A DNA stretch of 64,000 nucleotides from Mustelus asterias. Taxonomy: Eukaryota. Made by a program: the position numbers and the translations under genes. Numbering within the stretch: the first letter of the stretch is position 1; every line of letters starts with the position of its first letter. The notes under the pieces were generated by a model. That model was not told where the DNA came from, made no database searches, and saw nothing but the letters and a program-made list of their open reading frames with translations. The stretch is from positions 26,474,001 to 26,538,000 of the forward strand of contig NC_135823.1 of assembly GCF_964213995.1 (NCBI RefSeq), given 5' to 3'. Below are positions 35,626 through 63,892 of the stretch, in pieces.

Positions 35626-37934
35626 TTCAAGCATCATCCTCGTGAAGAGATGGCGAACAGTAAAAGCAGCATAAATGGAACTAAGGATGGAACTAAGTGA
35701 TCCCGCAACCAATGGGTCAGATCGATCTTCTGCAGTTCTGACACAGCCTAGTCATCTCAGTGATAGTGGACAAACAACTGGAGGGAAGACGTCACAAATA
35801 TTGCCAAATTGAACAATAGGAGCGCCCAGCACATCAGTGCAAAAGACAAGGCTGAAGCACTTGCAACAATCTTCAGCCAGAAGTGTTGATTGGGTGATCC
35901 AGCTCATCCTTCTCTTGAGGTCCCCAGCACCACAGTCTTCAGCCAATTAGATCACGCCATGTAATACCAAGATTGAATAAAAAATTTAAACTGTATTCCT
36001 CATAAATCAGAGAATGCTCTATTGTTTTATGAGATGACCAAAGTAGCTTGAAATGCAGATTTATAGGCATTTAAAAATACAAAGACTAGTCCATGTTAAG
36101 TAAACACTGGGTGAGTTCATATACAGGTCACTGAAAGTGTCTGCAGCCATTGTGGCTCCTGCTTCCTTTTGCTCGAAGGTTCATCTGTGCAGTTCAACTT
36201 TCTGCTTTTGTTTCTTTTCGTGTTTTTGCCCCCACAATTAAGACAAAAAATTTGCCAGTGCAGTGAGAGAAACAGTTGGAATTTTAACTTTTCTTAAAAT
36301 TCAGTTCTGAAAGTAAAAAGATACACTTAAGAATGAGTGGAGAAACCGGTGGATAAATGTCTCCCAACTGATTCTGAAGTCTCAGCATGACAGAGTATGT
36401 TGATGCTCATCGCGCAAACAAAGGTTGAGGTCAAATCGCTTCAAGTATTTTGTGCTGGAAACTATGTCTCATCCCATTAATCATGGCTTCAGATACAGCT
36501 TTGAGAAAGAGGACTGTTTTACATTTGGAGAGGGAGCATTCTAACTTTCAGCTTGGCCAATAACAAAGACTATATCACCTGAATCTTATGCTCCCTTCTG
36601 ATGGGTCCTGAGGTGGTTGGAGGGGGTGGGAGGAGCATGAAATTGCATGGACAGGATTCACTCTGGGTTCCTGCCCGTCCTGGTTGCGATTTGACAGTGG
36701 GTGGAGAAGGTCTTGAATGGGAAGCCTGCCTTTGTCCCAATTACGGCCCTTAACTGGCCACTTAATACCCTTTTCCCCACCAGCCTGAATCTTGAGGCTG
36801 GTGGGTGCCCTTCCACTCCCTTAGATTCCTACCACTTACCTGGCCTCCATGTCCTGACACTTAGGGCAGAATTCCCTTATTTCCCGTGGTCTCCCATTGC
36901 GTAGCTTGGGCTTCTACATCCTTTTCATCAAACCTTGGCAATGCTTGAATAAATTTGAACATGTCCCCAGTACACCTTTGGCTAAGAAGGGCCAAATCTT
37001 CCCCACCACCTTCCTCAATTTTTGCCTTAGCCTCCACAATTTTAAATTGATGTTCTCTTTTCAGTTACAGTTTCTGAAGTTCAAAGACCCTCTATTTCCC
37101 TTTTCTCTTTCTCTCTTCCATTTGCTTCTAATTCAAGCTGTCTCATTTCCTTCGCAAGTTGTAATTGCTTCAGTTCTTTTTCTTGTTACAGCTGTTTCAT
37201 TTGTTAGTGAATTCTAACCAATTCTAATGATTCAAACTGTGCCTCTCTGACAAATTTAAATGCTATGCATTTATCTCTGCCTTCCTCGCCCCTCCAGGTG
37301 CGGTCAACTGCAGCTTGTTCGCCAAATCCTAAAGCTTTGTTTTAACCACCACTTGCAAACCACTCTAAGTCACCTCGTCCATACCCAGGAAATCTTTAGT
37401 CACTGAAAGAGCCATTTTTCACAAGGCACTCCCTATCTAGCTACAGCAACACCTGAAAGAAAGCACCAGTTCCCCACACTCAGTATCCTTAAGTCCAATG
37501 ATCCCAAGCCAAACAAGAATTATACTTTTTAATCCCGGCAAGAGCCCCCAATTTTTGTTGGGCTCCAGGGCATGAACCTCAAGTTATATTAGGACACCAG
37601 ACTACACCCCAACAATTTTCCTGTTTGGCATAAGTGTGAGGATAGAATATTTCGCTCCAGGAGTAATTCCATTGTCAAAGTAGGGATCTTTTATAATAAA
37701 CTAAACTTTATTTAATAACACAGTTTAAATATAACTGGCAAATGAAGCAACTTAACTATTAACAGTTAAACGATGCTTAAAAATGAATAGGAAACAATTT
37801 TTATTTATTTCCTTGTCTGGCACTTGTATGGCACAAATGTTATTTGCCATTTGTTACCCCATGCCTGCAAATTGTCCAGTTTTGCTGCATATTAACATGA
37901 ACTGCTTAAATATCTGAGCAGTTATGAATGTGCT

Positions 37935-38223
37935 TGTGGTGAACCATTGTTGGTTACCACCAGGAGTGCTGAGCCATGGTCTGGCCAGTACTATGAGTCT
38001 GTAGATATGTTACTGTTGGGGTTAGGGTTGGGCTGTTCTACCTGTTAATATAGTCCTATGGTACACCCCAGTTGGCTCCGCCTCCTGGGAGAGGTATAAA
38101 GGTCACTGCTCTGCCTGGTGACCCTTTAGTCTGGGATTGTATATAGTAGCTCCGTTATTGTTGGCAATAAAAGCCTTTATTTCCCGGGTACATCCTGCCT
38201 CCCGTGTGATTTATCGCGCATCA
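37935..38223 (+). repeat. 5' LTR (289 bp)
   Basis: Identical to the 3' LTR except for a 7-bp indel. TATAAA at 38095-38100 and AATAAA at 38166-38171. Confidence 0.95.
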
Positions 38224-38273
38224 ATTTTATTGCCAACAAATAAATTCTGTTTTAAAAAAAAACAAAAGAAAAC

Positions 38274-41200
38274 ATGGAGCAAATGCTGAAACCCGAACGG
38301 CTTACGTTGGACCCACGTGCGGCGGGAGCATCGAACACTTTCGACCACTGGTTGAAGTGTTTCCAAGATTACCTCGACGCCTCCACAGCGGTCACCGACG
38401 ACGCCGACAGACTCCGGGTCCTCCACGCAAGGGTAAGCGACGCTGTATACTTAGCGATCCGTGAGGCCTCAGACTACAAAGGGGCCCTCGAGCTTCTCAA
38501 AAAGCGATACAACAAACCGCCGAATGAGATCCATGCTCGACACCTTCTAGCCACTCGACGGCGGCAGCCCGGCGAAACGACGGAATAGTACGTGTGTGAA
38601 CTTCAGCAGCTAGCCAGAGCCTGCAACTGCAAGTCAGTGTCGGCAGCCCAGTACATGAGCGACTTAGTTCGAGATGCGTTCGTGGCAGGAATCGGCTCGT
38701 CGTACATCCGCCTTCGGCTGCTGGTGCAAGGTAACCTCGATCTCACTAAAACCATAGAGTTAGCTGACACTCTAGAAACGGCCTCCAAAAGTCTGGAGAT
38801 GTACCCCGACAACCGCGTGGGGACATTGTGGCAGGGGCAGCCGCAGACTCCACTTTATTCAGCGGGACCGAAAAACTGCGCGATTGCGTTTCCAGCCTCG
38901 GACCTGACGACGGCAGCAGCTCCAGGTGGCCCGCGGTGTTACTTCTGTGGGGGGGTGAAACACCCTCGGCAGCGATGTCCAGCTAAAGCGGTGTTGTGCT
39001 CCGCCTGCGGCAAGAAGGGACATTATTCCAAAGTATGTCAGACCAAACATCCCTCCAAAAACAGCAGTGCGGCGTGTGACTCCCGGGAGCCGGCCTCCTT
39101 GTCTTCTGCGTCTTCGAGGTCTTCCACCACTTGCGATTCCAGGACGTCGCCATTCCTAACGACGGAGTCGCAAGACACGTGCGACCTGCAGGGGCCACAG
39201 GTTTTGGCGCCATCGTCCACGTGCGACCTATGGGGGCAGCCATTTTGGTCGGCACCGACCACGAATGACCAGCAGGGGCCGTCATCAACCATCTCAGCTG
39301 CCTGCAGTTGCACCCACAAACCAACGGTGGCGTCAATCATCCTGGACCAGGCCAAGCCTCACAGACTCGACAAGTCCATGATGGACATACAGGTAAACTG
39401 ACACCAGATTTATTGTTTGTTTGACAGCGGGAGCACGGAGAGCTTCATTCACCCTGACACCGTGAAGCGGTGTGGTCTCCAAATTCGGACTGTCAAGCAG
39501 ACAATTTCGATGGCGTCCACGTCCCGGTCTGTCACCGTGCTAGGGAGCTGCGTGGTCAATCTGATGGTGCAGGGCACGGTTTACGAGAACTTCAGGCTCC
39601 TTGTGTTACCGCACCTTTGCGCGCCAATACTCCTAGGACTAGATTTTATGGTCCACCTGAAGAGTGTAACCCTGCAGTACGATGGGCCACTCCCTCCGCT
39701 TTCAGTGGGAGATCCGCAGCCTCTAAATTGCCCAACGCGCTCCACATGTAGTCTCTCAATGCTCAGGATTACCACACCCTCCCTATTCCAGAATCTCGTG
39801 CCAGGCTGCAAGCCCATCGCAACAAAGAGCAGGCGTTACAGCGCTGAGGATCGGATCTTCATTCGATCTGAAGTTTCAGCGGCTCCTCAAGGAAGGGATC
39901 ATCCAACCTAGCGCTAGTCCTTGGAGAGCGCAAGTCGTGGTGGTTAAGAATGGGAACAAACCCCGGATGGTCATAGACTATAGTCAGACCATTAACAGAG
40001 ACACGCAGCTGGATGCGTATCCCCTCCCGCGCATATCTGACATGGTCAACCAGATTGCGCAGTACCGGGTGTTCTCCACCATCGACGTAAAATCTGCTAA
40101 CCACCAGCTCCCCATTCGCCCAGAGGACTGACAATACACGGCCTTTGAGGCGGATGGTCACCTGTACCATTTTTTAAGGGTTCCCTTTGGTGTCACGAAT
40201 GGGGTCTCGGTTTTCCAGCGTGTTATGGACCGAATGGTGGACCAGAACGGGCTGCGGGCTACCTTCCCGTACCTGGATAACGTCACCATCTGCGGCCATG
40301 ACCAGCAGGACCACGATGCCAACCTTCTTAGATTCTTATGCACTGCATCTCGCCTGAATCTGACCTACAACAAGGAGAAGTGTGTATTTCGCACGCGCCG
40401 TCTAGCTATCCTCGGATACGTGGTGGAAAACGGGGTCCTTGGCCCTGATCCAGACCGTATGCGTCCCCTCCTCGAACTCCCCCTGCCCACTAGCATCAAA
40501 GCACTGAGAAGATGTTTAGGCCTCTTCCCATACTATGCACAGTGGGTTCCCAATTACGCGGACAAAGCCCGTCCGCTCATCAAGTCTACCTCCTTTCCCC
40601 TAACAACAGAGGCTCGCTTAGCCTTTGCAGGAATAAAAGCCAACATCGCGAAAGCCACGATGCACGCTATCGATGAGTCCATCCCCTTCCAGGTGGAGAG
40701 TGATGCATCTGATTTCACCCTGGCCGCCACACTTAACCAGGCGGGCAGGCCCGTCGCCTTTTTCTCTCGCGCCCTCCAAGGCCCTGAAATTCGACATTCG
40801 GCGGTGGAAAAGGAGGCCCAGGCCATTGTGGAGGCCGTTCGGCATTGGCGCCATTACTTGGCGGGAAAACAGTTCACTCTGCTCACGGACCAGCGGTCCG
40901 TGGCGTTCATGTTCAACAACACGTTACGGGGTAAGATCAAGAATGATAAAATTTTGAGGTGGAGAATCGAACTCTCCACCTACAATTATGATATCATGTA
41001 CCGTCCAGGGAAGCTCAACGAGCCCTCGGACGCCCTGTCGCGTGGAACATGCGCTAGTGTGCAGGAGAATCGATTACAGGCTCTCCACAATGACCTCTGC
41101 CATCCGGGGGTCACTCGGCTCTTCCACTTCATAAAGGCCCGGAATCTACCCTACTCGGTGGAGGATGTCAGGTCCATAACCAGAAGCTGCCAGGTATGCG

Positions 41201-42072
41201 CGGAATGCAAACCGCACTTCTACCGACCTGACAGGGCACACCTCATTAAGGCCACTCGTCCTTTCGAAAGACTGAGTGTGGACTTTAAGGGCCCCCTTCC
41301 CTCGACAGATCGGAACGTGTACTTCCTCAATGTGATTGATGAGTACTCACGATTCCCTTTTGTCATTCCCTGTTCTGATATGACCGCTGCCACGGTTACC
41401 AAGGCATTACGTGATCTTTTCACCCTGTTCGGTTACCCCTGTTATATCCACAGCGATAGGGCTCGTCGTTCATGAGCGACGACTTGAGGCAATACCTGCT
41501 CTCATATGGGATTGCCTCTAGTAGAACCACGAGCTACAACCCAAGGGATAACGGACAGGTTGAACGAGAGAATGCTACAGTCTGGAAGGCTGTCTTACTG
41601 GCATTGAGGTCTAAAGGTCTTCCAGTCTCCCGTTGGCAAGAGGTACTCCCTGATGCTCTCCACTCCATACGCTCACTCCTGTGTATGACAACCAACGCTA
41701 CTCCTCATGAGAGAATGTTTTCATTCCCTAGGAAGTCTGCCTCTGGGACCTCATTACCGTCTTGGTTGACGTACTCAGGACCTGTCCTCCTGCGGCGGCA
41801 TGTTAGGACCCGCAAGTCCGACCCTTTGGTTGAACAGGTCCATCTCCTCCACGCCAACCCTCGGTATGCCTATGTGGCATATCCTGACGGGCGAGAGGAC
41901 AAGGTCTCGATTCGAGATCTTGGAAACCCCTGTCGCTCCCACACCCCTAGTTAGGGACCCCCCGACCATTATCTCCCCTCCTGACACGGCGCGGGCAGTA
42001 TCGGGACCACCACTTAACCCTCTTACTCCCGTGTACAGCTTGCCTGAGTCCAGGAGATTGTCGCCACGTTGA
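38274..42072 (+). pseudogene. Gypsy gag-pol with stops and frameshifts
   Basis: Zinc knuckles CYFCGGVKHPRQRC and CSACGKKGHYSKVC, protease FDSGS, RT YPLPRI and YLDN (catalytic D>N), RNase H VESDASD, integrase HNDLCHPG..CQVC, DFKGP, HSD and GQVEREN. Stops at 38586, 39399 and 40129. Confidence 0.95.
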
Positions 42073-42315
42073 GGCGTGCCCGAGTCCAGCGGATTGTCAC
42101 CACCTCGTGGTCTACCGGCCCGTGAGGAACTGGAGGAGTCGCTGGACACCGCCTTGGAGAGAACGTCACCGCGATTGCCTGAACCGGTGTCATCGTCGGT
42201 GTTGAGGAGGTCACAACGACGGTGCGATCCCCCAGACCGTTTGAACTTATAGACAGCTGAACATTTGTTCTGTGTTTTGTACCCTGCCGGCCTTTGTTTT
42301 CAAAGGAGGGGTGAA

Positions 42316-42611
42316 TGTGGTGAACCATTGTTGGTTACCACCAGGAGTGCTGAGCCATGGTCTGGCCAGTACTATGAGTCTGTAGATATGTTACTGTTGG
42401 GGTTAGGGTTGGGCTGTTCTACCTGTTAATATAGTCCTATGGTACACCCCAGTTGGCTCCGCCTCCTGGGAGAGGTATAAAGGTCACTGCTCTGCCTGGT
42501 GACCCTTTAGTCTGGGATTGTATATTGTATATAGTAGCTCCGTTATTGTTGGCAATAAAAGCCTTTATTTCCCGGGTACATCCTGCCTCCCGTGTGATTT
42601 ATCGCGCATCA
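42316..42611 (+). repeat. 3' LTR (296 bp)
   Basis: Direct repeat of 37935-38223 with an extra TGTATAT. Confidence 0.95.
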
Positions 42612-43577
42612 GTGCTGAACATTGCGCAAGCAATCGCGAACATCCCCACTTCTGACCTTATGAACCATAGAATCCCTACAGTGCATAAAGAGGTCATTTG
42701 GCCTCCCAAGTCTGCACTGACTCTCTGAAAGGTCAGAACTAAGGTAATTGCCCCCCCCCCCCCCCAACAACCGCAACCTTCTTCCTTTATGCTACATATG
42801 ACTGTAACCAACTGAGTGTGTTTCCCCCCCCCCACCCCTCCCCCATCCAATTTCATAATTTCCAGTGTGGCATCAAGGTGCCCTAGTTTTGCTAGGGTCA
42901 AATGTTACCTTGATGTCAAGGGCAATCATTCTCACCTCACCTCTGAAGTTCAACTAATGAGGTCAGGAGCTGAATGATCCCAGCAGAATCTAAATTGAGC
43001 ACCAGTGAGTAGATTATTGCTAAGCAAGAGCATTGATGATGACTCCCTCCACTGTATGCTTCTTAATTTTGGTTTTGATGGTCATGGGCCTCATCAGTCA
43101 GTGGTTCAGATAAAGACCGGCACCACAGACTGAGAAATAACACAAATGAAAGACATTTTACAAATAGCCTGAGAGCTGAGACAAGGCAACAACATGAGTG
43201 TCCTTCAGATAATCAGCAGATCCATTTCACATTAAAAAAGTATCCCCTGAAACCTTGGACATGGATGATGAACTGAGTTTTAGTCTCTGTGTGAGGGTTA
43301 CTTTCAGATATGGGTTAGGGTTTTCAAAATTTTCAAATGCATTTATCTTTTTCATTTAGAGTCAGGGCAATACAGGACGGAAACAGGCCCTTCGGCCCAA
43401 CCGGTCCATGCCGACCCTGGTACCCTCCCAGCTTGTCCCAATTGTCCACATTTATAGCTATTTAATAACTCAGCGAATATCAGATAATCAGAATTGGAAA
43501 ATATGCTGATTGATTTTTAAAAATGTATAATCTAAAATATTAAAGGTTCCTGTGACTAATGCATATAGAAACCTTAC

Positions 43578-59322: not shown

Positions 59323-62220
59323 TCAAGCTATCCCACTCCCTACCATCCTGGTGTGCTCCATGTGCCTATCCAATAACCGCTTAAATGTTCCTAAAGTGTC
59401 TGACTCCACTATCACTGCAGGCAGTCCATTCCACACCCCAACCACTCTCTGCGTGAAGAACCTACCTCTGATATCCTTCCTATATCTCCCACCATGAACC
59501 CTATAGTTATGCCCCCTCGTAATAGCTCCATCCACCCGAGGAAATAGTCTTTGAACGTTCACTCGATCTATCCCCTTCATCATTTTATAAACCTCTATTA
59601 AGTCTCCCCTCAATCTCCTCCGCTCCAGAGAGAACAGCCCCAGCTCCCTCAACCTTTCCTCATAAGACCGACACTCCAAACCAGGCAGCATCCTGGTAAA
59701 TCTCCTCTGCACTCTTTCCAGCGCTTCCACATCCTTCTTATAGTGAGGTGACCAGAACTGCACGCAATATTCCAAATGCGGTCTCACCAAGGTCCTGTAC
59801 AGTTGCAGCATAACCCCACGGCTCTTAAACTCCAACCCCCTGTTAATAAAAGCTAACACACTATATGCCTTCTTCACAGCTCTATCCACTTGAGTGGCAA
59901 CCTTTAGAGATCTGTGGATATGGACCCCAAGATCTCTCTGTTCCTCCACAGTCTTCAGAACCCTACCTTTGACCCTGTAATCCACATTTAAATTAGTCCT
60001 ACCAAAATGAATCACCTCACATTTATCAGGGTTAAACTCCATTTGCCATTTTTCAGCCCAGCTTTGCATCCTATCTATGTCTCTTTGCAGCCTACAACAC
60101 CCCTCCACCTCATCCACTACTCCACCAATCTTGGTGTCATCAGCAAATTTACTGATCCACCCTTCAGCCCCCTCCTCTAAGTCATTAATAAAAATCACAA
60201 AGAGCAGAGGACCAAGCACCGATCCCTGCGGCACTTCGCTAGCAACCTGCCTCCAGTCCGAAAATTTTCCATCCACCACCACCCTCTGTCTTCGATCAGA
60301 CAGCCAGTTACCTATCCAATCGGCCAACTTTCCCTCTATCCCACACCTCCTTACTTTCATCATAAGCCAACCATGGGGGACCTTATCAAACGCCTTACTA
60401 AAATCCATGTATATGACATCAACCGCCCTACCTTCATCAACACACTTAGTTACCTCCTCAAAAAATTCTATCAAATTTGTGAGGCACGATTTGCCCTTCA
60501 CAAATCCGTGCTGACTATCCCGGATTAATCCGCATCTTTCTAAATGGTCGTAAATCCCATCCCTAAGGACCTTTTCCATCAATTTACCAACCACCGAAGT
60601 CAGACTAACCGGTCTATAATTACCAGGGTCATTTCTATTCCCTTTCTTAAACAGAGGAACAACATTCGCCACTCTCCAGTCCTCTGGCACCATCCCCGGG
60701 GACAGCGAGGACCCAAAGATCAAAGCCAAAGGCTCTGCAATCTCATCCCTCGCCTCCCAAAGAATCCTAGGATACATTTCATCAGGCCCAGGGGACTTAT
60801 CGACCTTCAGTTTATTCAAAACTGCCAATACATCCTCCCTCCGAACATCTATTTCCTCCAGCCTATTAGCCTGTAACACCTTCTCTTCCTCAAAAACATG
60901 GCCCCTCTCCTTGGTGAACACTGAAGAAAAGTATTCATTCATCACCTCGCCTATCTCTACTGATTCCATACACAAGTTCCCACCACTGTCCTTGACCGGC
61001 CCTAACCTCACCCTGGTCATTCTTTTATTCCTCACATAAGAGTAAAAAGCCTTGGGATTTTCCTTGATCCGACCCGCCAAGGACTTCTCATGTCCCCTCC
61101 TAGCTCTCCTCAGCCCCTTTTTCAGCTCGTTCCTTGCTAACTTGTAACCCTCAGTCGAGCCATCTGAACCTTGTTTCCTCATCCCTACATAAGCTTCCCT
61201 CTTCCTTTTCACAAGACATTCCACCTCTTTTGTGAACCACGGTTCCCTCACTCGGCCATTTCCTCCCTGCCTGACAGGGACATAGCTATCAAGGACACCC
61301 AGTATTTGTTCCTTGAAAAAGTTCCACTTTTCATCAGTGCCTTTCCCTGACAGTTTCTGTTCCCATCTTATGCCCCCTAATTCTTGCCTAATCGCATCAT
61401 AATTACCTCTCCCCCAATTGTAAGCCTTGCCCTGCCGTCCGGCCCTATCCCTCTCCATTGCAATAACAAAAGACACAGAATTGTGGTCACTATCTCCAAA
61501 GTTCTCTCCCACAACCAAATCTAACACTTGGCCCGGTTCATTTCCCAGTACCAAATCCAATGTGGCCTCACCCCTTGTCGGCCTATCCACATATTGTGTC
61601 AGGAAACCCTCCTGCACACACTGCACAAAAAGTGCCCCATCCAAACTATTTGACCTACAAAGGTTCCAATCAATATTTGGAAAGTTAAAGTCCCCCATGA
61701 CAACTACCCTGTGACCCCCACACGTATCCATAATCTGCTTAGCAATTTCTTCCTCCACATCTCTATTACTATTTGGGGGCCTATAGTAAACTCCTAGCAA
61801 CGTGACCGCTCCTTTCCTGTTTCTAACTGCAGCCCATATTACCTCAGTGTGCATATCCCCCTCAAAGTGCTTTTCAGCAGCCGTTAAACTATCCTTGATT
61901 AACAATGCTACTCCTCCACCTCTTTTACCAGCTTCCCTACACTTACTGAAACATCTATACCCCGGAACGTCCAACAACCATTCCTGTCCTTGTTCTACTC
62001 ACGTCTCCGTAATGGCCACAACATCGTAGTCCCAAGTAGCAATCCACGCCCCAAGTTCATCCACCTTGTTCCGGATGCTCCTTGCATTGAAGTAGACACA
62101 CTTCAACCCATCTTCCTGTCTACCGGTACCCACCCTTGACCTTGATACCTTCCCCAATACCTCACCACCCTCAACACTGACTTCTGGACTACAACTCCTT
62201 TTCCCACTCCCCTGACAAAT
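59323..62220 (-). pseudogene. CR1 ORF2 (APE endonuclease plus RT) with a single premature stop at 61999-62001
   Basis: YFNARSI..K, ITET*(W), GGGVAL, YRPP, MGDFN, LDL, SDH, then RT QHGF, DFSKAFD, VPQGSVLGP, FADD. The ORFs 61999..62340 and 59323..61977 are in the same frame. Confidence 0.93.
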
Positions 62221-63146
62221 TAGTTTAAATCCCCCTGAAGAGCCGTAGCAAATTTCCCTCCCAGGATATTGGTGCCCCTCTGGTTCAGGTGCACCCCGTC
62301 CTGTTTGTAGAGGTCCCACCTTCCCCAGAACGTGTTCCAATTATCCACGTATCTGAAACCCTCCCTCCTGCACCATCCCTGCAACCACATGTTTAAGTGC
62401 ACTCTCTCCCTGTTCCTCAACTCGCTATCACGTGGCACCGGTAGCGTACCAGAGATGACCACATGTTTTGTCTTTGCTCTCAGCTTCCAGCCGAGCTCCC
62501 GAAATTCCTGTTTTAAATCCCCGTCCCTTCTCTTACCTATGTCGTTGGTACCAATGTGTACCACGACTTGTGACTGTTTCCCCTCCCCCTTAAGAATCCG
62601 GAAAACACGGTCCGAGACGTCACGGACCCTGGCATCCGGTAGGCAACAAACCACCCTCGAGTCTCTTTTGCTGCCACAGAACCTCCTATCTATCCCTCTA
62701 ACTAACGAGTCCCCAATAACTATTGCCCTCCCGCTCTCCTCCTTACCCTCCTGAGCCACAGGGACGGACTCAGTGCCGGAGATCCTCTCACTGCGGCTCA
62801 CCATTGGTATGTCGTCCCCCTCAACCGTATCCAAAGCGGAATACTTATTGCTAAGGGGAACGACCACAGGGGATCCCTGCACCGACTGCTTCTTCCCAGC
62901 CCCTCTCACCGTCACCCATCTATTTTCATTCCGCGGAGTAACTGTATCCCTGAAGCTTCTGTCTATGGCCATCTCTGCATCCCTAATGATCCTAAGTTCC
63001 TCCAACTCCAGCTCTAGTTCCCTTACACAGTTTTGGAGGAGCTGCAGATGGATGCACTTCTCACAGGTATAATCAGCAGGGACACTGACGTCGTCCCTCA
63101 CCTCGAACATAGTGCAAGAGGAACATTGCACTGCCTTCACACCCAT
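62220..63146 (-). CDS. CR1 ORF1p (zinc finger, coiled coil, SGNH esterase)
   Basis: CSSC...CEKC, heptad ELELELEEL, GDSLVR, HIGTND and DGVHLN in an intact 308-aa frame. Confidence 0.92.
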   Translation of the reverse strand: MGVKAVQCSSCTMFEVRDDVSVPADYTCEKCIHLQLLQNCVRELELELEELRIIRDAEMAIDRSFRDTVTPRNENRWVTVRGAGKKQSVQGSPVVVPLSNKYSALDTVEGDDIPMVSRSERISGTESVPVAQEGKEESGRAIVIGDSLVRGIDRRFCGSKRDSRVVCCLPDARVRDVSDRVFRILKGEGKQSQVVVHIGTNDIGKRRDGDLKQEFRELGWKLRAKTKHVVISGTLPVPRDSELRNRERVHLNMWLQGWCRREGFRYVDNWNTFWGRWDLYKQDGVHLNQRGTNILGGKFATALQGDLN

Positions 63147-63892
63147 CCCCTCTAGATACCTTGCCAGTACCAGGTAGAAACAGCAAAAAATGAATTAACT
63201 CACCCCTGCTCGCCCTTTCTGCCTAAGCCCTGTGAGCCAAAGCCCTACAGCTTTCACTCTGCCTCCTGCTCACTCTGCTGCCCGCTAACGACGCTGCCCG
63301 CTCAAAAGTGCGGCCTACTTTTAAACAATGAGGCTGAAAACTGCAAGTTAAGCACTTTTAAACCCTCCAAAAACCTTCCCAGACTCCTGCTGGGCCCACT
63401 TCCTGTTTTAAAAAAACCTCCGATTTTTTACACAAATTTAACTTAAAATAAATAAATAAATGTAGTGAACAAACCAACTGCCTTCTCCTCAGCCTGGTCC
63501 TGTGGAACAATGAGGCTGAAAACTGCAAGTTAAGCACTTTTAAACCCTCCAAAAACTAGAGGAAAGAACCTTCCGAGTCAATGCAAATTTCTTTCCAGAT
63601 TACTGTAAGCATAAGATGTTTCACTCCAGATATGATTCAAACAACCCACTAGGGAGCTTTATCAAGCAACGTTTATTTAAGAATACAGTTAACATATAGA
63701 AAGAAAATTAGCAATAACTTTTACCAATTACAAACAAGAAAAAAGACAACCATTATATTGTATACACTTTAACAACTAAATGCACTGTTCCAACCAAACA
63801 AACCTCCTTACAAACATACACCCATCTCAGGTTTAACACAGAAAATAAGAATGCTCACATGGTTTTGCAGCTCTGCAACCACCTACTGTGAA

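What the first reader, a model, noticed from the sequence alone, without database searches (positions are those of the whole stretch)
38155..38243. Gypsy element with no tRNA PBS: self-priming duplex that also masks the poly(A) signal
Seen: after the 5' LTR there is no TGG-type tRNA PBS. Instead 38225-38239 (TTTTATTGCCAACAA) is the perfect reverse complement of LTR 38158-38172 (TTGTTGGCAATAAAA), extendable by a few bp with one bulge. The 3' end of the LTR strand points at the LTR terminus 1 nt away, which is primer geometry. That strand contains AATAAA, which can alternatively fold as AATAAA-AGCC-TTTATT. Known: Tf1/sushi elements self-prime with the first ~11 nt of their RNA after cleavage. 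Inference: self-priming in an element with no visible chromodomain, from a segment that seems internal to the transcript (TATA at 38095). The duplex may double as a switch suppressing polyadenylation in the 5' LTR only.
Basis: partly seen in the sequence, partly recalled or inferred. Interest (0 to 1): 0.75.

Follow-up and report, generated by a model that had tools for sequence, protein, structure and literature searches.

The report
Self-priming Gypsy clade with fossil intermediates
This jumping gene and its relatives in many animals have no tRNA landing site; the site pairs instead with 13-18 letters of the element's own end-repeat and changes in step with them, and mis-copied insertions in the same genome break at exactly these edges, so the group likely starts DNA copying with a piece cut from inside its own RNA.

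Summary
Observation confirmed: 38225-38239 is the exact reverse complement of LTR 38158-38172, one base after the 5' LTR, with no TGG. The pairing covaries: 764 of 784 copies are Watson-Crick at a polymorphic pair. It recurs with other letters in four more families of this genome and in 17 of 24 loci from other hosts, always ending TAAA(A). The scan noted this clade before on other DNA (e1-7857539, e1-8039920, e1-7941792). Added here are aberrant integrase-made insertions. There are 119 fold-back matches (LTR + A + inverted U3-primer); all 30 examined carry a 5-bp target duplication, exact in 28. In 8 of 9 other junctions the minus-strand copy ends at AAAA|GCC. Best reading: Tf1-like self-priming in a non-chromodomain Gypsy clade, with the primer likely cut from inside the leader (predicted +31 to +45). 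Cleavage and start site are inferred; no RNA data. The poly(A) switch is weaker: the local hairpin is family-specific, and 8 of 17 relatives lack a canonical hexamer in the duplex. New variant of a known kind; interest 0.7.

The parts
37930..37934 (.). left target-site duplication GTGCT
37935..38223 (+). 5' LTR, TG...CA, 289 bp
38095..38100 (+). TATA box (predicted)
   Evidence: conserved in five families
38126..38132 (+). initiator-like TTAGTCT; predicted transcription start at A38128
   Evidence: TATA-to-A spacing 30-34 nt in 63 of 69 loci; inferred, no RNA
38158..38172 (+). putative self-primer, 15 nt, includes AATAAA 38166-38171; predicted cut between 38172 and 38173 (AAAA|GCC)
   Evidence: junction ends
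38173..38223 (+). 51-nt loop (rest of R plus U5), the predicted minus-strand strong-stop template; candidate poly(A) site near CA 38191-38192, GU-rich 38202-38211
   Evidence: poly(A) site inferred
38224..38224 (+). 1-nt spacer between LTR end and PBS
   Evidence: 1 nt in most relatives
38225..38239 (+). primer-binding site, reverse complement of 38158-38172; no TGG
38274..41954 (+). gag-pol (double zinc knuckle, protease, RT with YLDN, RNase H, integrase), broken in this copy; no chromodomain
42302..42311 (+). polypurine tract, 4 nt before the 3' LTR
42316..42611 (+). 3' LTR, 296 bp
42612..42616 (.). right target-site duplication GTGCT

Best explanation
This is a Ty3/Gypsy element of an animal-wide clade without chromodomain whose primer-binding site pairs with a 13-18-nt stretch of its own LTR and changes in step with it; it likely primes reverse transcription with that stretch, predicted to be cut out of the 5' leader at TAAA(A)|GCC. 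Steps: (1) Transcription is predicted to start at the initiator about 33 nt behind TATA, so the primer is internal, +31 to +45 in this copy (inferred). (2) The stretch pairs with the PBS (shown in sequence; predicted fully paired). (3) The 5' copy is cut after the A-run, probably by the element's RT/RNase H as in Tf1 (position inferred from junction ends; enzyme by analogy only). (4) Minus-strand synthesis starts with T opposite the 1-nt spacer, copies the 20-67-nt loop and transfers to the 3' R (inferred). (5) Plus-strand strong-stop DNA re-copies the primer, which resets the PBS to the LTR sequence; now and then it folds back on the LTR and is integrated as a U3-U3 palindrome (products shown; route inferred). 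Burying of AATAAA in the 5' LTR is a possible side effect in families where the hexamer lies in the primer.
For: Exact 15/15 match, null maximum 13 in 18,537. Polymorphic pair, LTR/PBS: C/G 688, T/A 76, C/A 11, T/G 8, T/T 1. In 59 copies with 16 different LTR 8-mers, positions 8-15 are Watson-Crick in 55-58 copies each and G-U in 0-4; position 16 pairs in 3. Five families in G000 with different primers, 83 of 90 loci scored; one family has ATTAAA with a matching PBS. 17 of 24 loci from other hosts have a 13-18-nt duplex, 17 of 17 ending TAAA(A). Three distant elements show an ordinary TGG PBS and fall outside the clade. Fold-back insertions: 119 matches; of 30 examined, 26 have an exact 5-bp TSD at the palindrome ends, 2 have one mismatch, 2 have an exact TSD at a farther end; 4 of 4 more are exact. 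29 of the 30 turn back straight through the PBS. Primer-T-inverted-U5 junctions resume at GCC (within 1 nt) in 8 of 9; none reaches the predicted start site. In L407 the minus-sense copy ends exactly at GGC and abuts the 5' edge of the 15-nt primer. Tf1 cDNA keeps a single-stranded PBS copy at its 3' end (PMC11042837, passages).
Against: No RNA shows the start site, the cut or a primer-DNA joint. Why only 13-16 nt of a 45-75-nt leader fragment are copied into the PBS is unexplained. Copies are related, so counts overstate independent events. 6 of 24 outside loci show no duplex and 1 lacks upstream sequence. The junction patterns required the bases after GCC to be intact, so shorter ends were not counted; a stem in R-U5 could also steer switching to GCC. 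Two junctions resume inside the primer (L396 at -8, L406 at about -12), and the 3' LTR of L373 runs on about 8 nt past the site. Two fold-backs continue into inverted PPT and internal sequence (L323, L335), which a 3'-LTR primer would explain more simply. In the sister families F2/F5 only 1 of 15 junctions examined is a clean palindrome with TSD.
Confidence: 0.72

Rival explanations
1. Self-priming exactly as in Tf1: the replicating RNA starts at the primer's first base (about 38158), so the primer is the capped 5' end and its length is set by the cap site; the TATA/initiator pair serves another transcript.
For: Sharp outer edge of the duplex at a family-specific length. L407 joins at exactly that edge. 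Tf1-type primers lie at the RNA 5' end (PMC10085805, PMC4600332, passages); Tf2 uses alternative start sites (PMC5341516, passages).
Against: TATA and initiator keep a 30-34-nt spacing in five families while the primer sits 78-108 nt behind TATA in most loci. No TATA-like word lies about 30 nt before the primer's first base in this copy.
Confidence: 0.12
2. The primer is the 3'-LTR copy of the same stretch: the RNA is cut after the A-run near its 3' end, and that end anneals to the PBS.
For: Explains covariation and palindromes equally well, and more simply the two fold-backs that run on through PPT and internal sequence. Among the 19 copies where 5' LTR and PBS disagree at the polymorphic pair and that were fetched, the PBS matches the 3' LTR in 10.
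Against: The 5' template would stay uncut, so strong-stop DNA should reach the start site; 8 of 9 junctions end at GCC and none reaches it. Palindrome arms are not richer in shared polymorphisms than ordinary LTR pairs (18 of 87 against 33 of 92 non-CpG differences; the LTR pairs were a biased set).
Confidence: 0.1
3. A host RNA (tRNA fragment or other) primes, and the LTR-PBS duplex is kept by selection as a structure that hides the 5' poly(A) signal.
For: AATAAA/ATTAAA lies inside the duplex in all five G000 families and in 9 of 17 outside loci. Predicted unpaired probability is 0.05 or less once the PBS is made. Stem-loop occlusion of the 5' signal is proposed for HIV-1 (PMC12789967, passages).
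Against: No TGG. The PBS takes at least 16 sequences in one family group and follows the LTR, which a fixed host primer would overwrite each cycle. G-U pairs, tolerated by a structural stem, are rare. 8 of 17 relatives lack the hexamer in the duplex, yet all keep the TAAA end and nearly all the 1-nt offset.
Confidence: 0.04

Closest known systems
Tf1/Tf2 (S. pombe), Tj1, Tosmo1-3, Tcry1 and the Tf1/sushi chromovirus group
   Same: Ty3/Gypsy gene order. PBS directly behind the 5' LTR and complementary to the element's own R region. A cut is needed to free the primer. PBS copy at the cDNA 3' end (PMC10085805, PMC4600332, PMC5341516, PMC11042837; passages).
   Different: No chromodomain. Double zinc knuckle in 93 of 120 relatives and RT motif YxDN in 95 of 120. 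Hosts include cnidarians, nematodes, arthropods, an echinoderm and a cephalopod, where chromoviruses are reported absent (PMC2774666, passage). Primer 13-18 nt, predicted internal, always ending TAAA(A); in Tf1 it is the RNA's 5' end (11 nt, recalled). No conserved flanking 'pretzel' helices were shown here.
Plant Tcn1 (Gypsy) and TAR/Houba (Copia) lineages
   Same: Self-priming predicted from LTR-PBS complementarity of 10 nt or more (PMC6317226, passages).
   Different: Other lineages and kingdoms; Tcn1 is a chromovirus; no primer ending at the poly(A) hexamer is described in the passages read.
Mag-lineage clades (A/B/C, SURL), Cigr-1 and MolGy clades of animal Gypsy elements
   Same: Animal hosts, short LTR, no chromodomain. 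Double Gag knuckle as in Mag (recalled). Cigr-1 is filed under Mag in a supplement row of PMC6238403 and is recalled as a compact element of about 4.2 kb.
   Different: No reference sequence could be compared, so the clade's published name, if any, is unknown. The main text of PMC6238403 has no occurrence of 'PBS'. Saci2/lennie use tRNA and mostly make 4-bp TSDs (PMC4558846, PMC12471100; passages).
HIV-1 poly(A) hairpin (5' LTR occlusion)
   Same: A hexamer in R predicted to be base-paired at the 5' end (PMC12789967, passages).
   Different: Here the partner strand is the PBS, present only behind the 5' LTR; function untested and not clade-wide.

Membership tests
Ty3/Gypsy LTR retrotransposon | PR-RT-RH-IN order between TG...CA LTRs, PPT, TSD | tested here: met
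   best solved-structure match is Ty3 Pol
Tf1/sushi chromoviruses | chromodomain at the integrase C-terminus | tested here: not met
   no Chromo or SH3_Tf2-1 hit in 6 window frames or 8 long relatives
Tf1/sushi chromoviruses | RT/RNase H groups with Tf1, sushi, Maggy | not testable with these tools
   no chromovirus reference could be brought in (searches gave none); the quick tree has only tRNA-PBS outgroups
Tf1/sushi chromoviruses | PBS complementary to own LTR, directly behind the LTR end | tested here: met
Tf1/sushi chromoviruses | self-primer is the 5' end of the RNA | tested here: inconclusive
   promoter motifs place it 30-60 nt inside; no RNA reads
Tf1/sushi chromoviruses | three-helix 'pretzel' around the PBS | tested here: inconclusive
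   single-sequence folds give weak, varying loop stems; no alignment-based test run
Tf1/sushi chromoviruses | RT-dependent cut frees the primer | not testable with these tools
   only the cut position is inferred
tRNA-primed Gypsy clades (Mag A/B/C, CsRN1, Saci2/lennie) | PBS begins TGG, complementary to a tRNA 3' end | tested here: not met
   PBS begins TTT in all families scored; TGG only in three outgroup loci
half-tRNA or internal tRNA priming | fixed PBS matching a host tRNA fragment | tested here: inconclusive
   no host tRNA set was compared; 16 LTR-tracking variants argue against it; Rfam shows nothing near threshold
Cigr-1 clade | RT/RH clusters with Cigr-1 | not testable with these tools
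   no sequence in the supplements searched; source paper not held

The most novel reading that the evidence does not exclude
An animal-wide Gypsy clade evolved self-priming independently of Tf1/sushi. It excises an internal 13-18-nt primer at a conserved TAAA(A)|RCC signal with two defined ends, often the very stretch that holds the poly(A) signal, so one duplex both primes and silences 5' polyadenylation. It does so with an RT whose YxDD motif is mostly YxDN. Its self-complementary strong-stop DNAs fold back and are integrated as a distinct class of U3-U3 palindromic insertions that map the reverse-transcription intermediates in the genome.
Probability: 0.35. Interest if true: 0.85.

Novelty: new variant of a known kind. 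Interest (0 to 1): 0.7.

Why it matters
In the papers read here, self-priming among Gypsy elements is confined to the Tf1/sushi group. A second, widespread animal clade with an internal primer would make tRNA-free priming a recurrent solution and require an extra processing step that Tf1 does not need. Thousands of young copies supply natural compensatory mutants. The palindromes and strong-stop junctions give base-level predictions (cut at AAAA|GCC, 51-nt strong stop, 15-nt primer) that short-RNA and cDNA-end sequencing can test at once. tRNA-based PBS finders would miss these elements, and the 500-600-bp palindromes could be mis-annotated as MITEs although they are LTR by-products.

Tried and rejected
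RNA evidence: no RNA holder listed; the four runs laid were contigs and show no starts or ends. Viral-contig scans gave no relative. A chromovirus outgroup from G000 was sought with PF16297 (0 matches), PF24626 (48 matches; in the 12 loci fetched 1 shows RT behind the integrase end, so apparently another group) and PF00385 (17 matches; no pol match in the 17 loci); none was usable. The tree is the quick one; the careful search did not finish. One search returned 0 because my spacing was off by one; one search replaced it. The arm-polymorphism test did not separate 5' from 3' priming. My first reading that all LTR/PBS mismatches are post-insertion mutations was dropped: T is in both LTRs in 3 of 8 T/G copies, and ordinary LTR pairs share family polymorphisms. 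My note that the 3' LTR of L373 ends at GCC was wrong. Patterns for further primer-edge joins found only L407 or nothing. Saci2/lennie rejected as the clade (tRNA PBS, mostly 4-bp TSD). Papers not held: Levin 1996, Lin and Levin 1997 and 1998, Atwood-Moore 2006, Simmen and Bird 2000; Butler 2001 was not looked up. What I say of them is recalled or second-hand. One supplement PDF and one slide file of PMC6238403 could not be read and may bear on the clade name.

Full report
Observation. The finding lies at the 5' end of a 4.68-kb Ty3/Gypsy element: LTRs 37935-38223 and 42316-42611, TSD GTGCT, PPT 42302-42311. It has one gag-pol frame in the order PR-RT-RH-IN, broken in this copy. One base after the LTR's terminal CA, 38225-38239 is the exact reverse complement of 38158-38172; among 18,537 random window positions the best such match was 13. 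There is no TGG. The family is large and young: the 150 best Gag matches in G000 are 95-100% identical. The nearest named proteins are from rays and sharks at about 80%.

Covariation within the family group. At one polymorphic pair the LTR/PBS counts are C/G 688, T/A 76, C/A 11, T/G 8 and T/T 1; these copies are related, so this is not 784 events. A looser junction pattern has 4,716 matches. I fetched 60 of the first listed places and set one aside as a palindrome. In the other 59, with 16 different LTR 8-mers, positions 8-15 of the duplex are Watson-Crick in 55-58 copies each and position 16 in 3. Own pairs score 7.66 of 8 against 4.61 (maximum 5.49) in 2,000 shuffles. Positions 1-7 were fixed by the pattern.

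Other families and hosts. Gag queries from two ray proteins reached four more families in G000. Of 90 loci, 83 were scored: the duplex is 13-16 nt, always one base behind the LTR end and always ending at A(A/T)TAAAA|GCC; the ATTAAA family has the matching PBS. Among 24 metagenome or MAG loci with a Gag start, 17 have a 13-18-nt duplex, 6 do not and 1 lacks upstream DNA. All 17 primers end in TAAA(A), 14 are followed by GCC or ACC, and only 9 contain AATAAA or ATTAAA. Three distant elements have a TGG PBS. In a quick tree of 50 rows the 18 labelled self-pairing rows lie on one side of a branch with support 100, the three tRNA-type rows on the other; 29 rows were unlabelled and no chromovirus was included. 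Named protein relatives come from cnidarians, nematodes, a crustacean, insects, an echinoderm, a cephalopod and Seison.

Where the primer sits. TATA-to-initiator spacing is 30-34 nt in 63 of 69 loci with a TATA, whereas TATA-to-primer end is 78-88 nt in four families (two outliers) and 106-108 in the fifth. This predicts a start at 38128 and a primer at +31 to +45 here. It is inference; RNA runs gave nothing usable.

Fossil intermediates, class 1. One fetched locus was a full LTR, the spacer A, and the reverse complement of the LTR from the primer's 3' end back to its first base, with a 5-bp TSD. A pattern for this has 119 matches, roughly 2-3% of the junction count, though the two patterns differ. 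Thirty were examined: 503-614 bp, TG...CA, from many subfamilies, 29 different flanks. The TSD is exact in 26 and has one mismatch in 2. The other 2 run on into inverted PPT and internal sequence and have an exact TSD farther out, one of them ending at an internal GCGCATCA. Four of 4 further matches have an exact TSD. In 29 of 30 the turn goes straight through the PBS; one includes 19 nt of leader first. The simplest route is plus-strand strong-stop DNA, ending in a copy of the primer, folding back on its own LTR and being integrated by its two U3 ends; how the second strand is made is inferred (re-priming at the PPT). Tf1 cDNA is reported to keep a single-stranded PBS copy (PMC11042837, passages). 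In families F2/F5 a similar pattern has 19 matches; of 15 examined only 1 is a clean palindrome with TSD and the rest are varied rearrangements.

Fossil intermediates, class 2. Four of those 15 read primer-T-inverted U5, then resume the sense LTR. Two targeted patterns gave 9 matches, including those 4. Eight resume at GCC within 1 nt and one 8 nt inside the primer. Five of the eight are solo-LTR-like with an exact TSD, one has a single mismatch, one has none and one is joined to inverted gag sequence. Searches for longer resumptions up to a 100-nt gap gave that same copy, one resuming about 12 nt inside the primer, and L407, where the minus-sense copy ends exactly at GGC and abuts the first base of the 15-nt primer. 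None reaches the predicted start site. Read on the other strand, these are minus-strand strong-stop DNAs that ended at the primer's 3' boundary, folded on themselves and re-copied U5 and the primer. That is what a cut in the 5' leader predicts and a 3'-LTR primer does not. Caveats: small numbers, pattern bias, an R-U5 stem that may steer the switch, and L373, whose 3' LTR runs about 8 nt past the site.

Poly(A) masking. The hexamer's unpaired probability falls from about 0.5-0.9 to 0.05 or less once the PBS is transcribed. The 3' LTR copy, however, is also predicted partly paired, 0.03-0.9 depending on base and window. The local hairpin is in 34 of 38 loci of this group and 0 of 50 in sister families; a second AATAAA behind the PBS in this copy is shared by only 3 of 28 loci. 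With 8 of 17 outside loci lacking a canonical hexamer in the duplex, masking is at most a side role in part of the clade.

Comparison and novelty. It works like Tf1/Tf2/Tj1 self-priming (PMC4600332, PMC5341516, PMC10085805; passages) but fails the chromodomain test. It also occurs in hosts reported to lack chromoviruses (PMC2774666, passage); the phylogenetic test against Tf1/sushi could not be run. Predicted self-priming is also described for plant Tcn1 and TAR (PMC6317226, passages). PBS-less fungal GalEa and bivalve TRIMs use other structures (PMC5445492, PMC6934838; passages). PMC3601003 (passages) mentions hairpin priming only for some chromoviruses. Ten full-text searches listed no paper whose title, abstract start or read passages describe a self-primed non-chromovirus animal Gypsy clade, YLDN RTs, or such palindromes. 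Subscription papers and Repbase/GyDB were not searchable, so prior description is possible. The scan itself noted the clade three times on other DNA; word searches of its notes found no mention of the palindromes.

Verdict. Real, clade-wide and mechanistically informative: a new variant of a known kind. Self-priming in some form is about 0.9 likely, the 5'-leader internal-primer version 0.72, a real poly(A)-switch role in the shark families about 0.35. Interest 0.7.

Noticed in passing
window 40270-40281; P0001-P0120; L294-L313: RT motif reads YLDN, not YxDD: YxDN in 95 of 120 relatives, YxDD in 22, none matched in 3; YLDN in 20 of 20 G000 elements. The family is young and abundant, so this RT evidently worked. 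One literature search found nothing.
   Followed up: partly
L314-L343, L377-L380 (G000): Class of 500-600-bp U3-U3 palindromic insertions with 5-bp TSD, 119 pattern matches; MITE-like in look but LTR-derived.
   Followed up: yes
L374 position 1481: Fold-back product whose far end is an internal GCGCATCA resembling the U5 end, followed by the TSD: integrase apparently used a cryptic end.
   Followed up: partly
L214-L233: 5' and 3' LTRs of single elements often differ at family polymorphisms (33 of 92 non-CpG differences; biased set), hinting at intermolecular strand transfer or conversion.
   Followed up: partly
L061-L065, L094, L137, L142: A short hairpin (G/A)CCT...AGG(T/C) starts right at the predicted cut in many invertebrate-host families; could be part of the cleavage signal.
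   Followed up: no
L375, L376, L396, L398: Inverted duplications that include LTR end, PBS and start of gag.
   Followed up: no
L141-L153: Animal-type retrotransposon contigs sit inside bacterial MAG records, probably host contamination.
   Followed up: no
window 59323-63194 (-): LINE-type element with endonuclease and RT (891-aa frame) and an upstream GDSL-esterase frame, as in CR1/L2-type ORF1 (label recalled).
   Followed up: no
L344-L355: SH3_Tf2-1 matches in G000 belong to another LTR group; in L354 RT follows the integrase end, as in Gmr1-like elements (label recalled).
   Followed up: no
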